Shown in pieces: positions 1 through 7,042 of a stretch of DNA of 64,000 nucleotides. Where the stretch lies: positions 15,774 to 79,773 of the forward strand of contig JBATUQ010000052.1 in assembly GCA_049671285.1 (NCBI GenBank), written 5' to 3'. Each line of letters opens with the position of its first letter. The stretch's first letter is position 1. The position numbers were made by a program, and so were the translations under genes. The notes beneath the pieces are model-generated. The model did no database searches, was not told the DNA's origin, and was given only the letters and a program-made list of their open reading frames with translations. Source of the stretch: Leeuwenhoekiella sp. GTDB lineage: Bacteria; Bacteroidota; Bacteroidia; Flavobacteriales; Flavobacteriaceae.

Positions 1-597
1 TTAAAGGATGATATAAATGAAGCTAATTTTACGGACAATTTATTCGGAGAGAAAACAAAAATCAATGCACAAGAATTGCTTGAAATAAACTTTAAGAAAT
101 ACAATAAGGTAGAGGCATCAGCAAACGAAATTTTAAACCCCTTCAATTATTATGATGCTGCTGCAAATATTGTTGACCCAAATAACGAAATAAGCCCAGG
201 TAGTTCAGGGCAAAATTACGGGATGCTTGCTCTGCTTTGTATCGCCAAGCTTTCTATTGTTGAAAGAAAGACAAGACATACTTTTGATAGGGTTGTAGAG
301 GGAATAAGAATTTTGCCAATTGATGAAGTTGCAGGATTAGGAGAAAACTTTGATATGCTTTACGACATTGCAAAGCGGTTAGACTATCAGATTTTCACTA
401 TGACAATTACTGCTAATGACTTGACTTTTCAAAACGGCAATCAAATTTACTATGAATTTATCAAAAATGCAGATGAAAAACTTTTTGAGCATAATGAGGG
501 AATTCAAGCTTGCTTCTCTAAAGATAAATTGATAGATGATATTCAAACACATTTTTCAGATTCAACTTTCCATTTGGAAGAAATTAATATCAAATGA
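1..597 (+). CDS. 3' part of an SMC/ABC-type ATPase gene, 5'-truncated by the window edge; candidate defence ATPase (Wadjet JetC/MksF-like or PARIS AriA/OLD-like)
   Basis: Frame 1 is open from nt 1 (no stop before the listed ATG at 76), so the gene starts upstream of the window. The translation has an ABC-signature-like SPGSSGQ motif. About 35 aa later comes a Walker-B/D-loop-like RILPIDEVAGLG, then an H-loop-position QIFTMTIT with no His. A 4-bp ATGA stop/start overlap joins it to the next ORF. Confidence 0.4.
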   Translation, partial: LKDDINEANFTDNLFGEKTKINAQELLEINFKKYNKVEASANEILNPFNYYDAAANIVDPNNEISPGSSGQNYGMLALLCIAKLSIVERKTRHTFDRVVEGIRILPIDEVAGLGENFDMLYDIAKRLDYQIFTMTITANDLTFQNGNQIYYEFIKNADEKLFEHNEGIQACFSKDKLIDDIQTHFSDSTFHLEEINIK

Positions 598-1508
598 TTC
601 CAATTAATACGCCATATAAGGTTCTAATGTATTTGGTAAAAATCAATGAAGATAAATCTTCACCAAAAAAGTATGAAAGTGACGCATTGATTTTGCATTT
701 TATTGAAAGGAAGTATCTAACAACACCAAAAGAAAGTCATAGAAAGTTTTATAAATCAAGTTCTTTTGAAGAACCTTTTACCAATGAAATTTTTCCAACA
801 TTTAGAAAATATGATTCATTCATCAAAAAATATCAAATTGAGAACTTAGAGAATCATTATTCAGTTCAGGAATTTGATACCTTAATCCAAATTGAAAATG
901 AAAGAGTAAAAATTCTTAATGCTGAATATTCTTTTCAAACAATACTTACTCAGCATTTTGGAAGTTCAAAGCACAGGAAAGCAGGTGGAATTTTATCTGA
1001 CGCAATAAAGAAAATATTAAAAATTGACAGCTTCCCTGAAGAGATTAAAGATCGACAATTTCTTTCTGTTCTATATCCAAAAAATGAAACTCGCTATATC
1101 ATACTTTGTGAAAATTTGAATAGATTAAAAATGCCAAGACACGACTTCATTGAGTTTTGGTATGCAGGTGGAAAAAACATAAAACAGCTTCAATTCATTC
1201 CAAAACCTAAGGTTCCAATTTTTTATCTATTTGATTGGGATTATGAAGGATTAAATATTTACATAGAAATTGAGCAAAAATACTTACCGACTATTAAAGC
1301 GTTAATCCCTGATAATTACGAATCATTAATGGAAAAACAGGAAGACGTAAAAGAGCACCACAGTAAATGGAAAAATAATAAATGCTTACTTCATTTATGT
1401 GAGAATGAAAGAGAAATAGCAAAGGTTTTATTTGAAACAGACCACATAATAGAAGAGCAGAAAATTAGGTTAAATGATATAAATCTATTAAAAAACGGCA
1501 TCATTTAG
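594..1508 (+). CDS. Toprim-domain protein; nuclease/topoisomerase-like partner of the upstream ATPase (JetD/MksG-like or OLD/AriB-like)
   Basis: The C-terminal half carries Toprim hallmarks in the right order and spacing: a conserved Glu in RYIILCENLNRL, a Gly-Gly in FWYAGGKN, and DxD-G in IFYLFDWDYEGLNIY. The 4-bp overlap with the upstream ATPase gene implies translational coupling. At 304 aa it is nearer AriB/DUF4435 size than a typical ~400-aa JetD. Confidence 0.4.
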   Translation: MIPINTPYKVLMYLVKINEDKSSPKKYESDALILHFIERKYLTTPKESHRKFYKSSSFEEPFTNEIFPTFRKYDSFIKKYQIENLENHYSVQEFDTLIQIENERVKILNAEYSFQTILTQHFGSSKHRKAGGILSDAIKKILKIDSFPEEIKDRQFLSVLYPKNETRYIILCENLNRLKMPRHDFIEFWYAGGKNIKQLQFIPKPKVPIFYLFDWDYEGLNIYIEIEQKYLPTIKALIPDNYESLMEKQEDVKEHHSKWKNNKCLLHLCENEREIAKVLFETDHIIEEQKIRLNDINLLKNGII

Positions 1509-1588
1509 AGAACATTTATATTAACACGTTTGATGATACATTAGCAATTCACACAAGAAAACGTTTAGTCCAAGTATGACAAAATAAC

Positions 1589-1745
1589 CCGGAAAAGTTT
1601 TCGAACAGCGATCCCAACGAGGTTTCTATTGTGCTGACCAATCAGTATAATTTTCGCGTAAGCGTGATTGCCATTGATGAGATCCCGGTACAGTTTCAGT
1701 AGCGGGATTTTGAGATGCAGATTGTCGTAGAAGCTAAAAAGACAT
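1589..1745 (+). pseudogene. Degenerate partial copy of an internal segment (codons ~70-125) of the DUF58 gene
   Basis: About 157 bp, ~90% identical to 3029-3185 inside the intact DUF58 gene. It translates to PEKFSNSDPNEVSIVLTNQYNFRVSVIAIDEIPVQFQ*, with TAG replacing the AAG Lys codon of the intact copy. It is a direct repeat 1440 bp upstream of its parent and brackets the rhuM gene. Confidence 0.6.
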
Positions 1746-1760
1746 GTAAAGCAAGGTGAA

Positions 1761-2738
1761 ATGCATTCAGAAATAATTATATATCAAACCGAAGACGGGC
1801 AGACCAAAATTCGAACTCGATTAGAAAATGAAACTGTTTGGTTGAATCAAGAACAAATGGCAGAGCTTTTTCAGAGAGATCGAAGTGTGATTACAAAACA
1901 TATCGGCAATATTTTCAAAGAAGGAGAATTGGAAAAAAAAAGCAATGTGCAAAATTTGCACATTGGTGGTTCAGACAAGCCTGTAAAGTTTTACAATCTT
2001 GATGTTATCATATCAGTAGGTTACCGGGTAAAATCGCTAAGAGGCACTCAATTTCGTATTTGGGCAACACAGCGGTTGCGAGAATATATCGTCAAGGGTT
2101 TTGCTATGAATGACGACCTGCTCAAGGAAGCAGGTGGTGGCAATTATTTTGATGAACTGCTAGCTCGCATCAGAGATATACGTTCATCCGAAAAAGTGTT
2201 TTGGCGTAAAGTGCTCGATATTTATGCAACCAGTATTGATTATGACGGTAAAGCCGAAGAATCCATCCCTTTTTTTAAGACGGTACAAAATAAAATGCAC
2301 TGGGCTGCACACGGGCAAGCGGCTGCAGAAACCATTTACAAACGTATTGACGCTAGTAAACCCCATTTGGGCCTAACCAATTTTAAAGGCGAAAAGCCAA
2401 CAAAAAAAGAAACTGAGGTTGCCAAAAACTACCTGAATGAAAAAGAACTGGATGTTCTCAACAGAATGGTTACAGCCTATTTGGAATTAGCAGAACTGCA
2501 AGCGCTGAACAGAAAGCCAATGTATATGAAAGATTGGATAAGCCGTTTAGATGACTTTCTTCAGATGACCGGAAACGACATCCTAACCAATGCAGGAAGC
2601 ATCAGTCATCAAAAAGCTTTGGACAAAGCTCATCAAGAATATGAAAAACATAGGGAAGAAACCAAAAATGAGCTTTCTAAAGCAGAAAAGGATTTCATAA
2701 AGCAAATAGAGTCTACTGCCAAAAAATTAAAGAAATAG
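1761..2738 (+). CDS. rhuM: RhuM-family protein (virulence/defence-island associated, DNA-binding)
   Basis: 325 aa. The N-terminus IIIYQTEDGQTKIRTRLENETVWLNQEQMAELFQRDRSVITKHI and the central YRVKSLRGTQFRIWATQRLREYIVKGF are the conserved core of the RhuM family. Confidence 0.85.
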   Translation: MHSEIIIYQTEDGQTKIRTRLENETVWLNQEQMAELFQRDRSVITKHIGNIFKEGELEKKSNVQNLHIGGSDKPVKFYNLDVIISVGYRVKSLRGTQFRIWATQRLREYIVKGFAMNDDLLKEAGGGNYFDELLARIRDIRSSEKVFWRKVLDIYATSIDYDGKAEESIPFFKTVQNKMHWAAHGQAAAETIYKRIDASKPHLGLTNFKGEKPTKKETEVAKNYLNEKELDVLNRMVTAYLELAELQALNRKPMYMKDWISRLDDFLQMTGNDILTNAGSISHQKALDKAHQEYEKHREETKNELSKAEKDFIKQIESTAKKLKK

Positions 2739-2815
2739 CCAATGCAAAATTTAGTACACATAGCATACAGCCAAACGACTAGGAGCAAAAGTTCTGATTT
2801 CTAAAAGAATAAAAA

Positions 2816-4156
2816 TTGAAAATAATAAGCTTCATAAAATCCCTCTACCTCCACAACCGTGTGTTTTACGCATTGGCCGGCATCGGTGTACTTTTCCTGT
2901 TTTCCTATTGGTATCAATGGTTGTATGTGGTAAGTTGGTTGCTGCTTTGGGCGTTGTTTTTGTTTTTTATCATTGATTGCGTTGCCCTATACCGAAGAAA
3001 AGACGGCCTTACCGCAAAACGCGATTTGCCGGAAAAGTTTTCGAACAGCGATCCCAATGAGGTACCGATTCTGCTGACCAATCAGTATAATTTTCGCGTC
3101 AGCGTAATTGCCATTGATGAGATCCCGGTACAGTTTCAGAAGCGGGATTTTGAGATGAAGATTTTGGTGGAGGCCAAAAAGAACAAACGCGTGGAGTACC
3201 ACTTGCGCCCCACCGAGCGTGGTCAGTACACCTTTGGGAACCTCAACCTTTACGTTCGGTCGCCGTTGTTGCTGGCGGTACGTCGGTATAAATTTCAAAA
3301 GGACCAGATGGTAAAGGTGTATCCGTCGTTCATCCAGATGAAGAAGTATGCCTTTCTCGCCATCGACAATAAGTTGACGCAATACGGTCTGAAGAAAATG
3401 CGTCGCATTGGCCACACGATGGAGTTTGAACAGATCAAGGAATACGTTCCCGGTGACGATGTGCGTACCATTAATTGGAAAGCCACGGCCAAACAGGGCA
3501 ACCTGATGGTCAATCAATATCAGGATGAAAAATCTCAGCCCATTTATTCGGTAATCGATGCGAGCCGGGTGATGAAAATGCCTTTTAAAGGCTTGACACT
3601 GTTGGATTATGCCATCAACAGTACGCTGGCCTTTAGTAATGTGGCACTAAAAAAAGGCGATAAAACCGGAATGCTCACCTTTAGTGAAAACATTCTGAAC
3701 CACCTCGCCGCAAGCAAAAAGAAAACCCACCTCAACCTGATTATGGAGGTGCTCTACAGCATCAACACCCGTTTTCTAGATAGTGATTTTGGTCGCTTGT
3801 ATGCCGAAGTGAAACATAAGATTACCCACCGCAGCCTGCTTTTGCTGTACACCAACTTTGAGCACATCACCGCACTCGAGCGGCAACTGCCCTATCTCAA
3901 AGGACTTTCGCAGAAACATGTACTGGTCGTGATCTTTTTCGAAAATTCGGAGCTGGACGATATAATTCAGAAGAAGGCGGAAAACACTCCTGAAATCTAC
4001 CACAAGGCCATTGCCCAAAAAATGGACTATGACAAAAAATTAATGGTCAAGGAACTGGAAAAGCACGGCATTCAGACCGTACTCACCAAGCCGGAAAACC
4101 TTACAGTAAATACCATCAACAAATATTTGGAAATCAAAGCCCGGGGTATTTTGTAA
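2816..4156 (+). CDS. DUF58 domain protein (MoxR-associated, vWA-like fold) with an N-terminal transmembrane extension
   Basis: The DUF58 core motif is present: GHTMEFEQIKEYVPGDDVRTINWKATAKQGNLMVNQYQDEKSQP. The N-terminus has two hydrophobic helices. No MoxR ATPase gene lies next to it in this window. Confidence 0.85.
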   Translation: MKIISFIKSLYLHNRVFYALAGIGVLFLFSYWYQWLYVVSWLLLWALFLFFIIDCVALYRRKDGLTAKRDLPEKFSNSDPNEVPILLTNQYNFRVSVIAIDEIPVQFQKRDFEMKILVEAKKNKRVEYHLRPTERGQYTFGNLNLYVRSPLLLAVRRYKFQKDQMVKVYPSFIQMKKYAFLAIDNKLTQYGLKKMRRIGHTMEFEQIKEYVPGDDVRTINWKATAKQGNLMVNQYQDEKSQPIYSVIDASRVMKMPFKGLTLLDYAINSTLAFSNVALKKGDKTGMLTFSENILNHLAASKKKTHLNLIMEVLYSINTRFLDSDFGRLYAEVKHKITHRSLLLLYTNFEHITALERQLPYLKGLSQKHVLVVIFFENSELDDIIQKKAENTPEIYHKAIAQKMDYDKKLMVKELEKHGIQTVLTKPENLTVNTINKYLEIKARGIL

Positions 4157-4240: not shown

Positions 4241-4609
4241 ATGAAAAAAGTCCTCATTTATATTTTGGGCGGGATCGTCGCCCTCTTCTTGTTTTTCTTT
4301 GTTTTTGTGTATTCGGTGCCGTATAGCGAGGGCACCCGTGCTGGCGAACTGATCAAATTCAGTCACAAAGGTGTGCTCGTCAAAACCTGGGAAGGCCAGA
4401 TCAGTCAAGGGATCAGCGGTGCACAGATTTTTGATTTCTCGGTGTTGGATAAGGAAGACGATGTCATTCAGAAATTACAGGATTATCAGGGCACCTATGT
4501 CAAACTCACCTACGTGGAGCGGTACACCACCTTTTTCTTCTGGGGCGACACCAAATATTTCATTACCGACGTAGTCAAGGAAAATTCACCACATTTTAAC
4601 CGGCAATAA
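4241..4609 (+). CDS. Hypothetical small membrane protein
   Basis: The listed ORF 4157-4609 most plausibly starts at the internal ATG (MKKVLIYILGGIVALFLFFFVFVY), giving a single N-terminal TM helix. No recognisable family. Confidence 0.45.
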   Translation: MKKVLIYILGGIVALFLFFFVFVYSVPYSEGTRAGELIKFSHKGVLVKTWEGQISQGISGAQIFDFSVLDKEDDVIQKLQDYQGTYVKLTYVERYTTFFFWGDTKYFITDVVKENSPHFNRQ

Positions 4610-5358
4610 TGTTTCAATCGGGCCTTGTACGGCATCCTTGCCAAAAGCCCTCAGGAGTTCCTTATCTTTACGTTCAAATTCAAAGAAATATTATATTGAG
4701 CATTTCCGAAAACCTAAAAAAATATAAGAACGAACTTCCCCAACAGGTCAAACTGGTTGCGGTATCAAAGACCAAACCTTTAGAAGATCTTCGTGAAGCA
4801 TACGATGCCGGTCAGCGCATTTTTGGTGAAAACAAAATCCAGGAAATGACCGATAAATGGGAAGCGCTTCCCAAAGATATCCAATGGCATATGATTGGTC
4901 ACGTGCAGACCAATAAGGTGAAGTATATGGCGCCTTATGTGAGCTTGATACACAGCGGCGACCGGCTCAAACTCTTCAAGGAAATCAACAAACAGGGCAA
5001 AAAAGCAGACCGCATAATCAATGTGCTGCTTCAGGTTAAGATTGCCGAAGAGGATAGTAAATTTGGAATGGATCCCAAAGAAGCCGAAGATTTTCTAAAC
5101 GGTGAACCACTGGCTGATTTTCCCTATGTAAACATTAAAGGTTTGATGGGAATGGCGTCTTTTGTTGAGGATGAGAAGCAATTGCATCGGGAGTTTGCGG
5201 TAGTTGAAAAGTTGTATGACCGCTTCCGCGAAAAACACGGTTTTACGATACTAAGTGCAGGAATGAGCGGAGATTATAAGATCGCCCTCGAGCACAAAAG
5301 CAATATGGTACGCATAGGCAGTGCTATTTTTGGCGCCCGTGAAGGAGGTGGATGGTAG
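4609..5358 (+). CDS. yggS: YggS-family pyridoxal-phosphate homeostasis protein (PLPHP)
   Basis: KLVAVSKTKPLEDLREAYDAGQRIFGENKIQEM...WHMIGHVQTNKVKYM is the YggS/alanine-racemase-N fold signature. The true start may be the in-frame TTG at about 4696 (MSISENLKKYK...), giving the usual ~220 aa. The listed ATG at 4609 abuts the previous stop. Confidence 0.85.
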   Translation: MFQSGLVRHPCQKPSGVPYLYVQIQRNIILSISENLKKYKNELPQQVKLVAVSKTKPLEDLREAYDAGQRIFGENKIQEMTDKWEALPKDIQWHMIGHVQTNKVKYMAPYVSLIHSGDRLKLFKEINKQGKKADRIINVLLQVKIAEEDSKFGMDPKEAEDFLNGEPLADFPYVNIKGLMGMASFVEDEKQLHREFAVVEKLYDRFREKHGFTILSAGMSGDYKIALEHKSNMVRIGSAIFGAREGGGW

Positions 5359-5380
5359 CGGATCAGTTGGCAGTCTTCGG

Positions 5381-5540
5381 TGGGCAGTGGCAGTCTTCAG
5401 TAGGCAGTGGCAGTCTTCGGTGGGCAGTGGCAGTCTTCGGTGGGCAGTGGCAGTCTTCGGTGGGCAGTGGCAGTCTCCAGTGGGCAGTGGCAGTCTTCAG
5501 TGGGCAGTGGCAGTCTTCAGTGGCAGTTTGCAGTTTTTTG
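5381..5540. repeat. 20-bp tandem minisatellite, ~8 copies (TGGGCAGTGGCAGTCTTCGG)n, intergenic
   Basis: Head-to-tail copies with only 1-2 nt variants (TCAG/TCGG/CCAG at the unit end). The unit length is not a multiple of 3. It lies between the yggS stop at 5358 and the exonuclease start at 5654. The listed ORFs 5321-5602, 5352-5582 and 5363-5641(-) are just translations of the repeat. Confidence 0.9.
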
Positions 5541-5653
5541 AAGTTCTTAAAATCACAGCAACCCTGCACAATTACGAAGTAGAATTTAAACATATTACTT
5601 AAATCCCGACCAAAAAACTTCAAACATTGAACTATAAACATTAACCAAATTAC

Positions 5654-7042
5654 GTGTACGCAGTTTTAGACATAGAGACCACAGGAGGAAAATTTAATGA
5701 AGAAGGCATCACGGAAATTGCTATTTACCGTTTTGATGGCCGTGAGGTGGTCGATCAGTTTATCAGCCTTGTGAATCCCGAGCAGCCCATTCAACCTTTT
5801 GTGGTTCAACTCACTGGGATCAACAATAAAATGCTGCGCAATGCCCCCAAATTTTATGAGGTGGCCAAACGTATCATCGAAATCACAAACGAATGCACTA
5901 TCGTTGCCCATAATGCACCCTTTGACTACCGCATCCTCCGGTTGGAATTTGACCGTCTTGGATATGATTACCAACGTAAAAGCCTGTGTACCGTTGACCT
6001 TTCCAAAGAGCTGCTGCCCGAAGAAGAAAGCCACAGTCTGGGCAAACTTGCCCGTAGTTTGGGAATACCAATGACAGACCGCCACCGGGCAAGCGGTGAT
6101 GCGCTGGCCACTGTAAAACTTTTTAAGCTCTTGCTCAACCGCGACACCAAAAAGAAAATCATACAACAGAGCGTCAACCTCAACGTACCAAAAAAAATGG
6201 AGACCAAACTCCGTGATTTGCTGGAAACCGTACCAAGCACCACCGGAGTTTTCTACCTGCATAATGCCAAGGGGAAGATAATATTTATCGGCAGAAGCCG
6301 AAATATGAAAAAAAGGCTCAATCAATATTTTACCAATGAAAACAAAAAATCCCGACAAATACAAGAGCGTACCGCTGCCGTAAGCGTAGAGGAAACCGGA
6401 AGTGAACTCATTGCAACCCTGAAGGAATATGAAGAGCTGAAGCAGAACAGGCCATATTACAACACCTTAAAAAGGGAGCAGTTTACTAGCCAGTTGGTCA
6501 TAAAAATCGATCCAGACGGATTTGCATCGCTGGTCGTAGAGCGTCCCGATGACCGCCCCGACCCTATCGCCTATTTTGCAAACAGCAGCAGTGCCAAAAA
6601 GCACCTTCTCGACTATGTTGACAAGTATGACCTCTGCCTGAACAGAACAAGCATGAAGAAAGACAAAGGGGCTTGCGAGAATTACAAGTTGGGAACGTGC
6701 AAGGGAGCCTGTGTTGGCAATGAGGAGCCGTCAAGTTACAATGCAAGGGTAGAAGATTTGATACGGGAACATTCCTTTTTCGGGCGGGATTTGGCTATTA
6801 TTGACCGGGGTCGCAACGCGAAAGAGCGTGCAGTAATTTTGATTGAAAATGGTAAACTGAGAGGTATGGGTTACTTTAACCTTAATTTTCAGATCAACGA
6901 TCCACAAATACTGCATAAGATCATTACCCCAATGAAGGATAATGCGGTTTTTCGGTTTATCATCCAACGACACTTACGTTCCAAGAAAGTCCTGAAAATT
7001 ATCGATCTTAAGGCCATCAATCAATCTGAAACCAAAAACTAG
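5654..7042 (+). CDS. DnaQ-like (DEDDh) 3'-5' exonuclease fused to a GIY-YIG nuclease domain (Cho/UvrC-N-like)
   Basis: The N-terminus MYAVLDIETTGG...IVAHNAPFDYRIL...HRASGDALAT gives the Exo I, II and III motifs. The central GVFYLHNAKGKIIFIGRSRNMKKRLNQYF is the GIY-YIG core. This fusion is common in Bacteroidota. Confidence 0.8.
   Translation: MYAVLDIETTGGKFNEEGITEIAIYRFDGREVVDQFISLVNPEQPIQPFVVQLTGINNKMLRNAPKFYEVAKRIIEITNECTIVAHNAPFDYRILRLEFDRLGYDYQRKSLCTVDLSKELLPEEESHSLGKLARSLGIPMTDRHRASGDALATVKLFKLLLNRDTKKKIIQQSVNLNVPKKMETKLRDLLETVPSTTGVFYLHNAKGKIIFIGRSRNMKKRLNQYFTNENKKSRQIQERTAAVSVEETGSELIATLKEYEELKQNRPYYNTLKREQFTSQLVIKIDPDGFASLVVERPDDRPDPIAYFANSSSAKKHLLDYVDKYDLCLNRTSMKKDKGACENYKLGTCKGACVGNEEPSSYNARVEDLIREHSFFGRDLAIIDRGRNAKERAVILIENGKLRGMGYFNLNFQINDPQILHKIITPMKDNAVFRFIIQRHLRSKKVLKIIDLKAINQSETKN

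What the first reader, a model, noticed from the sequence alone, without database searches (positions are those of the whole stretch)
1589..3185. 157-bp degenerate direct repeat of an internal DUF58 gene segment brackets rhuM: a recombination or insertion scar
Seen in sequence: 1589-1745 is ~90% identical to 3029-3185, which encodes residues ~70-125 of the intact DUF58 protein. It carries a TAG where the intact copy has AAG. The two copies are 1440 bp apart in direct orientation, with rhuM and the DUF58 promoter plus N-terminus between them.

Inference: the rhuM segment, or the whole left-hand island, arrived by recombination within or next to a DUF58 gene. A homologous DUF58 fragment was left as a relic. 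The 10% divergence suggests the fragment came from a different lineage, e.g. the island donor, rather than from a recent in-situ duplication.
Basis: seen in the sequence. Interest (0 to 1): 0.55.

Follow-up and report, generated by a model that had tools for sequence, protein, structure and literature searches.

The report
Dead DUF58 fragment inside defence-gene insertion
A 154-base dead copy of part of a housekeeping gene (DUF58) is a real leftover from the stepwise, integrase-free insertion of anti-phage genes between two normally adjacent genes of a marine Flavobacterium; it is an ordinary recombination scar, not a new kind of element.

Summary
The repeat is real. Window 1589-1742 matches 3029-3182 at 140/154 bases, with no indels and a 1440-bp offset. 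The upstream copy is DUF58 codons 72-122 with AAG>TAG at codon 109. Two independent Logan contigs from run SRR28062985 reproduce both flanks at 100% identity.

In 82 of 84 related loci the moxR stop lies within 0-492 bp of the DUF58 start (13 bp or less in 67), with no inserted gene. Here about 7.9 kb separates them. The insert has three pieces:
- a 6.6-kb Wadjet-like four-gene cassette, 89% identical to a copy at an unrelated locus elsewhere;
- the relic;
- a 1.05-kb rhuM fragment cut out of a larger defence operon, which keeps the first ~19 codons of the next gene.

No integrase, terminal inverted repeats or target-site duplication were found.

The relic's differences from the resident copy look like allelic divergence (dN/dS 0.14, no second-position changes). 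Its peptide matches the resident at 46/51 residues and no other homologue above 33/51. So it comes from a close relative's DUF58, or from the host's own displaced copy, not from a distant island donor.

Best reading: a passive scar of one-sided homologous plus illegitimate recombination. Interest is modest.

The parts
1..597 (+). 3' end of the 1165-aa SMC-like (JetC-like) gene of the Wadjet-like cassette
   Evidence: The ORF continues leftwards in L091 (L091 6474-9971; window position = L091 position - 9374). It has no Pfam, PADLOC or NCBIfam hit. An ABC/SMC-type C-terminal signature was seen by eye only.
594..1508 (+). JetD-like gene (304 aa), last gene of the cassette
   Evidence: Weak PADLOC JetD hits, E=1.4e-5 and 1.4e-4. 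It follows the same three genes in 8 other loci.
1509..1557 (+). Right end of the 6.6-kb cassette
   Evidence: The 89.3% nucleotide homology to L092 runs from L091 4322 to window 1557.
1558..1588 (.). 31-bp filler of unknown origin between cassette and relic
   Evidence: It is homologous neither to L092 beyond the cassette end nor to DUF58 upstream of codon 72.
1589..1742 (+). DUF58 relic: codons 72-122 of a second, allelic DUF58 copy, with TAG at 1700-1702
   Evidence: 140/154 identity to 3029-3182 with no indels. dS 0.34, dN 0.046. 46/51 aa identity to the resident copy and at most 33/51 to any other homologue.
1748..2799 (+). rhuM fragment: last few codons of an upstream gene, intact rhuM (1761-2738), and the first ~19 codons of a helicase gene (2742-2804, ending in a new stop)
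   Evidence: 82-87% nucleotide identity to rhuM loci L086-L090 over window 1748/1753-2791/2798. In those loci rhuM sits in MmeI and/or AAA_13 - rhuM - helicase - T5orf172 operons.
2800..2815 (.). 16 bp of unknown origin directly upstream of the DUF58 start codon
   Evidence: There is no moxR tail here, unlike in relatives where '...EIPR*' abuts the DUF58 start.
2816..4156 (+). Intact DUF58 gene (446 aa)
   Evidence: PF01882, E=2e-16. 100% identical to P0001, a Leeuwenhoekiella sp. MAG protein; the next-best homologue is 79% identical.
3029..3182 (+). Resident copy of the repeated segment (codons 72-122)

Best explanation
The 154-bp element is a passive pseudogene fragment: codons 72-122, truncated at both ends, with one premature stop. 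It derives from a second DUF58 allele that diverged from the resident gene while both were still functional.

It lies inside a ~7.9-kb insertion that carries no integrase and splits the normally adjacent moxR-DUF58 pair of a conserved operon (SpoIIM - UPF0259 - DUF4129 - DUF4350 - MoxR - DUF58).

Inferred history:
1. DNA from a closely related lineage carried a rhuM fragment directly upstream of its own DUF58.
2. That DNA recombined one-sidedly with the host locus. There was a homologous crossover within or beyond DUF58 and an illegitimate joint at codon 122, in the purine run AAAAAGA. This could have been homology-facilitated illegitimate recombination or a Campbell-type single crossover of a circularised fragment.
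3. Either route duplicates the 5' part of DUF58, giving a truncated, displaced copy, then rhuM, then an intact gene.
4. The displaced copy was later cut back to codons 72-122 when the 6.6-kb Wadjet-like cassette, with short filler, replaced its upstream part. The order of these two events is unknown.

Shown: the anatomy, the canonical empty site in relatives, the independent origin of the modules, and the selection signature. Inferred: the recombination route and the order of events.
For: - Repeat geometry and in-frame register.
- The canonical moxR|DUF58 abutment in 82 of 84 loci, and in the closest relative L093.
- L091 shows moxR (ending VEVPR*), then 22 bp, then the four-gene cassette, then 31 bp, then the relic.
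- The cassette is 89.3% identical over 6.6 kb to L092 at an unrelated locus.
- rhuM nucleotide homology ends inside the flanking genes of its native operon, so it is a torn-out fragment.
- dN/dS is 0.14. No change falls on a second codon position. The four amino-acid changes are all conservative and sit at family-variable positions. The likelihood ratio for allelic divergence over in-situ neutral decay is 4-29.
- No integrase, terminal inverted repeat or target-site duplication was found.
- The same kind of displacement scar is described for T6SS and Rhs arrays (PMC5361080).
Against: - No conspecific genome exists in any searched collection. The next DUF58 is 79% identical and the metagenome scan found nothing. 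So neither donor nor recipient allele can be identified and no empty site from the same species is available.
- The selection test rests on only 14 substitutions.
- The history needs at least two illegitimate events plus one homologous event.
- Microhomology at the joints cannot be verified without the donor sequence.
- No DUF58 codons 1-71 remain upstream of the cassette, so an extra deletion must be assumed.
Confidence: 0.65

Rival explanations
1. In-situ duplication followed by neutral decay of the upstream copy. The duplication could be a tandem duplication of the 1440-bp unit 1743-3182, or a template-switch copy of 154 bp used as filler at a repair junction.
For: The source lies only 1.4 kb away on the same strand and in direct orientation. 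The relic is flanked by short unassignable filler of 31 bp and about 5 bp, which is typical of illegitimate joints. The purine run AAAAAGA at the right edge could serve as microhomology.
Against: A neutral relic should take most hits at non-synonymous sites. Observed are 5 non-synonymous changes out of 14 (P of about 0.01 under this model), none at second codon positions (P=0.003 under uniform expectation), and no indels. Apart from the stop, no conserved-motif residue has changed. A dS of 0.34 would require a very old duplication.
Confidence: 0.15
2. The two copies are attL/attR-type repeats made by site-specific integration of an element that targets DUF58 and carries a replacement 5' end.
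For: The repeats are direct, and the downstream copy lies in an intact gene whose 5' end follows foreign DNA.
Against: The repeats bracket only 1.29 kb (rhuM plus DUF58 codons 1-71). No recombinase is present anywhere between moxR and DUF58. The large cassette lies outside the repeats. The relic is not preceded by DUF58 codons 1-71, and no DUF58 sequence follows moxR. None of the 8 other cassette loci or 5 rhuM loci carries any DUF58 sequence.
Confidence: 0.03
3. Assembly artefact: a strain chimera or mis-join at the shared 33-mer in a metagenome-assembled genome.
For: The source is a MAG. In a k=31 graph the 33-bp exact run is a repeat node, so an alternative pairing exists on paper: the cassette joined to a 5'-truncated DUF58, plus a separate 1440-bp circle.
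Against: Both non-homologous junctions of the relic (1588|1589 and 1742|1743) lie inside independent Logan contigs at 100% identity. The MAG path is the only linear traversal that uses every edge once. The alternative needs a free 1.4-kb circle with no replication origin and a broken DUF58. Reads of 100 bp or more span a 33-mer easily.
Confidence: 0.04
4. The relic is retained because it has a function, for example as a leader or promoter for the orphan rhuM, or as an RNA that pairs with DUF58 mRNA.
For: It ends 18 bp upstream of the rhuM start. Its reading frame runs into a TGA that overlaps the rhuM ATG in the same TGAAATG arrangement seen in native rhuM operons.
Against: There is no Rfam match and no promoter- or terminator-like signal above shuffle expectation. 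No second instance exists in any related locus. Nothing shows conservation beyond the inherited coding signal.
Confidence: 0.04

Closest known systems
Orphan or displaced gene fragments in Rhs, CDI and T6SS effector-immunity arrays, attributed to homology-facilitated illegitimate recombination (Kirchberger et al. 2017, PMC5361080; HFIR references cited there: de Vries & Wackernagel 2002, Prudhomme et al. 2002, Meier & Wackernagel 2003)
   Same: An incoming module is anchored by homology to a conserved gene. A displaced, truncated older copy is left next to the new one. The copies differ at an allelic level and no integrase is involved.
   Different: Here the duplicated piece is the 5'-internal part of a housekeeping operon gene rather than a toxin 3' end. 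There is a single relic, not an array. The cargo is anti-phage genes.
Partial target-gene duplications (attL/attR) made by integrative islands that insert into a gene and restore it
   Same: A direct repeat of a gene segment, with the intact gene downstream of foreign DNA.
   Different: There is no recombinase. The repeats do not bracket the whole insert. The identical core is only 33 bp and overall identity is 91%.
Defence-island hotspots between conserved core genes
   Same: Defence-type genes (a Wadjet-like cassette and RhuM/PDC-S05) are stacked at one site between two core genes.
   Different: The site is inside an operon, between two genes that abut or overlap in most relatives. It is occupied in only 1 of about 86 loci examined, so it is not shown to be a recurrent hotspot.

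Membership tests
Pseudogene fragment (relic) of DUF58 | Significant homology to part of the gene, truncated, with a disabling mutation | tested here: met
   Codons 72-122 only. 140/154 nt and 46/51 aa identity. TAG at the invariant K109 position. tblastn finds no other DUF58 piece in the window or in L091.
Site-specific integration att repeats | The repeats flank the entire inserted element | tested here: not met
   The insert runs from the moxR stop (L091 4299) to window 2815. The repeats bracket only 1743-3028. No DUF58 sequence follows moxR.
Site-specific integration att repeats | An integrase or recombinase encoded in the element | tested here: not met
   The only genes between moxR and DUF58 are four cassette genes and rhuM, and none has a recombinase domain.
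Transposon insertion (target-site duplication) | A short (2-14 bp) identical duplication, terminal inverted repeats and a transposase | tested here: not met
   The repeat is 154 bp at 91% identity. No terminal inverted repeat or duplication of 9 bp or more occurs at any junction, and 8-mer matches are at chance level.
Recent in-situ tandem duplication | Near-identical copies, or differences distributed as neutral decay in the non-functional copy | tested here: not met
   9% divergence, dN/dS 0.14, codon-position split 9/5/0, P of about 0.01 under the neutral-relic model.
Homology-facilitated illegitimate recombination or one-sided homologous insertion scar | Foreign DNA contiguous with a homologous anchor gene | tested here: met
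   The rhuM fragment ends 16 bp before the start of the intact DUF58.
Homology-facilitated illegitimate recombination or one-sided homologous insertion scar | An illegitimate joint at short microhomology | tested here: inconclusive
   The purine run AAAAAGA lies at the relic/rhuM joint. Similar Lys/Arg-coding runs end the upstream gene in rhuM operons. The true donor sequence is unknown.
Homology-facilitated illegitimate recombination or one-sided homologous insertion scar | Identifiable donor and recipient alleles, or a mosaic breakpoint in the anchor gene | not testable with these tools
   No genome closer than 79% aa identity exists in any collection searched.
RhuM family (PF13310; PADLOC candidate PDC-S05) | A full-length match above the curated cut-off | tested here: met
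   PF13310 at 356 bits against a cut-off of 33.7. PDC-S05 at E=1.7e-155.
Wadjet (JetABCD) / MksBEF-G | JetA (kleisin-like), JetB (MksE), JetC (SMC ATPase) and JetD (Toprim) in one operon | tested here: inconclusive
   A four-gene operon of fitting sizes. MksE at 2.4e-15 and JetD only at 1.4e-5. The 451-aa and 1165-aa proteins hit no model.

The most novel reading that the evidence does not exclude
The 5' region of DUF58 at the moxR|DUF58 boundary acts as an integrase-free capture site. Defence cassettes would be stacked there by repeated one-sided homologous recombination anchored in DUF58, each event leaving a displaced DUF58 fragment that records the order of capture. Against this, the site is occupied in only 1 of about 86 loci. 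None of 13 other cassette or rhuM loci carries a DUF58 fragment.
Probability: 0.06. Interest if true: 0.5.

Novelty: new member of a known kind. Interest (0 to 1): 0.28.

Why it matters
The locus is a clean, readable example of defence genes entering a bacterial chromosome without any dedicated mobility enzyme. Discrete modules, including a piece torn from the middle of another defence operon, were joined by illegitimate and one-sided homologous recombination. They landed between two adjacent operon genes without destroying either. The relic gives relative timing: the allelic divergence predates the event, and only one disabling mutation has accumulated since. It adds no new mechanism or element class. 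Its practical value is for annotation, since the relic should be flagged as a pseudogene fragment, and as a caution that repeats of this kind in MAGs can be genuine.

Tried and rejected
- Exact-protein look-ups for the window's JetD-like and DUF58 products, and for P0001, found nothing. The source contig was reached only indirectly, through rhuM (P0121 to L085) and an alternative JetD gene call (P0241 to L091).
- A genome-contig scan with DUF58 returned no relative closer than 77%. The protein search found nothing between 79% and 100%. A metagenome scan for the shared core of the repeat gave 0 hits. So there is no empty site or donor allele from the same species.
- P0077, a 376-aa DUF58 that starts at codon 71, looked like a second truncation at the relic's left edge. 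It is a gene-call artefact: the full N-terminus follows the moxR stop in L093.
- L045 (Aureibaculum flavum), the only other locus without moxR upstream, is an unrelated rearrangement with his genes, a sulfatase and an RDD protein. It is not an island.
- A search for terminal inverted repeats, target-site duplications or shared junction motifs found only chance-level 7-8-mers. One of these is an 8-bp inverted GGGTTATT / AATAACCC pair.
- The in-register 7-mer AAGAAAA, 27 bp upstream of the repeat, was considered as an extension of the relic and rejected. It overlaps the cassette end and the intervening 27 bases do not match.
- The Rfam search and the promoter/terminator scan were negative.
- Eight further cassette loci were fetched to test whether DUF58 pieces travel with the cassette. 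None does.
Full report
**1. The observation**

The repeat finder and a base-by-base comparison confirm a gap-free direct repeat. Window 1589-1742 matches 3029-3182 at 140/154 bases (91%) with an offset of 1440 bp. The chance probability is about 1e-56.

The downstream copy lies in an intact 446-aa DUF58 gene (2816-4156; PF01882). It begins exactly at the first base of codon 72 and ends in codon 122. The upstream copy reads in the same frame but has TAG where the gene has AAG at codon 109. That position is Lys in 118 of 119 homologues. Between the copies lie rhuM (1761-2738; PF13310, E=1e-106; PADLOC PDC-S05) and DUF58 codons 1-71.

**2. Is it an assembly artefact?**

The source is a Leeuwenhoekiella sp. 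MAG contig of 79,773 bp. P0001 and P0121 are 100% identical to the window's DUF58 and rhuM products. The contig itself could not be retrieved.

Two contigs from the independent Logan assembly of run SRR28062985 reproduce the region at 100% identity:
- L085 equals window 1670-3136.
- L091 equals window 1-1696.

Both stop exactly where a k=31 graph must branch. That point is the only exact shared run of 31 bp or more, the 33-bp run at 1667-1699 = 3107-3139. Both non-homologous junctions of the relic lie inside unbranched contigs. The MAG order is the only linear path that uses every edge once. I rate an artefact at about 4%. Read mapping across the 33-mer would settle it.

**3. Context: what is normally there**

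In 82 of 84 related loci a MoxR-type AAA ATPase gene lies directly upstream of DUF58. The gap is 0-13 bp in 67 of them and never more than 492 bp. The operon is SpoIIM - UPF0259 - DUF4129 - DUF4350 - MoxR - DUF58.

The two exceptions are uninformative. L001 is too short, although the moxR tail is visible. L045 is an unrelated rearrangement.

In the closest retrievable relative (L093, 76-81% aa identity) the moxR stop is followed immediately by GTG AAA ATT ATT, the DUF58 start. The window has no moxR anywhere in its 64 kb and no moxR tail before 2816.

**4. The left side**

L091 extends 9.4 kb beyond the window's left edge (window position = L091 position - 9374). In order it shows:
- the same operon through moxR, which ends VEVPR* at L091 4299;
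- 22 bp;
- a four-gene cassette: 451 aa, MksE (211 aa), an SMC-like protein (1165 aa) and a JetD-like protein (304 aa);
- 31 bp;
- the relic.

So about 7.9 kb has been inserted exactly between the moxR stop and the DUF58 start, all on the operon's strand. No DUF58 codons 1-71 follow moxR.

**5. The insert is a mosaic of independent pieces**

- **The cassette.** L091 4322 to window 1557 is 6.6 kb with 31% GC, against 46% for the operon. It is 89.3% identical in nucleotide sequence to L092, where it sits between a TrkA-type channel gene and clpB. Six further metagenome loci (L095, L096 and L098-L101) carry the same four genes in the same order, and L097 carries the last two.
- **The rhuM segment.** It is 82-87% identical to rhuM loci L086-L090 over window 1748/1753-2791/2798. 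In those loci rhuM is tightly packed between an MmeI-type and/or AAA_13 gene and a helicase - T5orf172 pair. The window keeps only the last few codons of the upstream gene, rhuM itself, and the first ~19 codons of the helicase (MQNLVHIAYSQTTRSKSS..., running into a new stop at 2802-2804). It is therefore a 1.05-kb piece torn out of a larger operon.
- **The joints.** They carry 22, 31, about 5 and 16 bp of unassignable sequence.

There is no integrase or transposase gene. No terminal inverted repeat or target-site duplication rises above chance.

**6. Where the relic came from**

Its peptide shares 46/51 residues with the resident gene, including all lineage-specific residues. It shares at most 33/51 with any of 119 other homologues drawn from a 5.8-billion-protein collection. 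At nucleotide level no species representative exceeds about 71% over the full length, against 91% for the resident copy. The source is therefore a very close relative of the host gene, not a distant donor.

The 14 substitutions fall 9/5/0 on codon positions 3/1/2. Seven codons differ only synonymously. The four amino-acid replacements (P84S, L86V, K115Q, L117V) are conservative and sit at family-variable positions. There are no indels. Nei-Gojobori estimates give dS 0.34, dN 0.046 and dN/dS 0.14.

If the relic had been copied in situ and then decayed neutrally, about 68% of the differences should be non-synonymous. Observed are 5 of 14 (P of about 0.01). The likelihood ratio for allelic divergence over in-situ decay is 4-29, depending on omega. 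Most of the divergence therefore predates the loss of function. Only the stop codon is clearly a later change. The sample is small, so this evidence is moderate rather than conclusive.

**7. Mechanism (inferred)**

A duplication of the 5' part of a gene, with foreign DNA between the copies and the downstream copy intact, is what one-sided homologous recombination produces. One end of the incoming DNA (rhuM fragment plus DUF58) crosses over homologously within or beyond DUF58. The other end joins illegitimately inside the host's DUF58, here after codon 122. A circularised fragment that integrates by a single crossover gives the same product.

The joint lies in a purine run, AAAAAGA. Similar Lys/Arg-coding runs end the upstream gene of rhuM operons. 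Microhomology is therefore plausible but unverifiable.

The displaced copy, originally codons 1-122, must then have lost codons 1-71. The simplest route is that the cassette plus filler replaced them. The reverse order of events is equally possible.

Which copy is native cannot be decided. Under this model the relic would be the host's old allele and the 5' part of the intact gene would be imported.

The same logic has been proposed for orphan fragments in T6SS, Rhs and CDI arrays (PMC5361080).

**8. Rivals**

- In-situ duplication or a template switch followed by decay: 0.15. It is disfavoured by the selection signature.
- att repeats of a site-specific element: 0.03. It fails three defining features.
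- Assembly artefact: 0.04.
- A functional leader or RNA: 0.04. There is no Rfam hit, no promoter or terminator signal above shuffle expectation, and no recurrence elsewhere.

**9. Is it a recurrent, targeted phenomenon?**

No. None of the 8 other cassette loci or 5 rhuM loci carries moxR, DUF58 or a DUF58 fragment. No other DUF58 locus examined carries an insertion or a second DUF58 piece.

**10. Verdict**

It needs refining in three respects:
- The relic lies inside a three-part, integrase-free mosaic and not at an island boundary.
- Its source is a close relative of the host, or the host itself, rather than the donors of the defence genes.
- The DUF58 'promoter' in the interval is not shown.

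This is a new instance of a known kind of recombination scar. Interest is modest (0.28).

Noticed in passing
L091 4322 to window 1557 (window 1-1557 is its right part): A conserved four-gene cassette (451 aa / MksE 211 aa / SMC-like 1165 aa / short JetD-like 304 aa), about 6.6 kb at 31% GC. It is 89% identical at an unrelated locus (L092), and L095-L101 share its gene order. PADLOC, Pfam and NCBIfam recognise only MksE and, weakly, JetD. It may be a divergent Wadjet/Mks type that current models miss.
   Followed up: partly
window 1748-2804: rhuM here is an orphan. In its closest relatives (93-94% aa identity: Maribacter sp. and metagenome contigs) it sits in MmeI-type RM and/or AAA_13 - rhuM - DEAD/ResIII helicase - T5orf172 operons. 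RhuM proteins are 85-95% identical across named sources from several Bacteroidota groups, whereas the neighbouring core gene DUF58 drops to 79% at its nearest relative. This implies frequent horizontal transfer.
   Followed up: partly
window 5368-5527 (weaker copies from 5328 to 5547): A tandem array of about 8 copies of a 20-bp unit (TGGCAGTCTTCAGTGGGCAG, 94% matches). It starts at the 3' end of the YggS-like gene (4609-5358) and lies upstream of a DnaQ-exonuclease/GIY-YIG gene (5654-7042). Function unknown.
   Followed up: no
window 4157-64000: The ThrRS - IF3 genes, followed in L081 and L093 by L35 and L20, come after DUF58 in the three closest relatives (L002, L081, L093). ThrRS, IF3 and L20 are absent from the whole window. 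Here DUF58 is followed by a small membrane protein, YggS and an exonuclease gene. DUF58 is therefore non-syntenic on both sides relative to its nearest relatives.
   Followed up: partly
L045 1-11341 (Aureibaculum flavum): The only other DUF58 locus of 84 without moxR upstream. Histidine-biosynthesis genes, a sulfatase and an RDD protein precede DUF58 instead. It looks like an independent rearrangement of the operon.
   Followed up: partly
L099 82-291: A rhuM-like C-terminal fragment (39% identity to residues 250-322) lies just upstream of the JetA-like gene of another copy of the cassette. This hints that rhuM-type genes and this cassette co-occur in defence islands elsewhere.
   Followed up: no
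L091 4298-4305 and window 1583-1590: An 8-bp inverted pair, GGGTTATT / AATAACCC, lies at the moxR stop and at the left edge of the relic. It brackets the cassette plus filler. Given the number of comparisons made, this is within chance expectation.
   Followed up: yes
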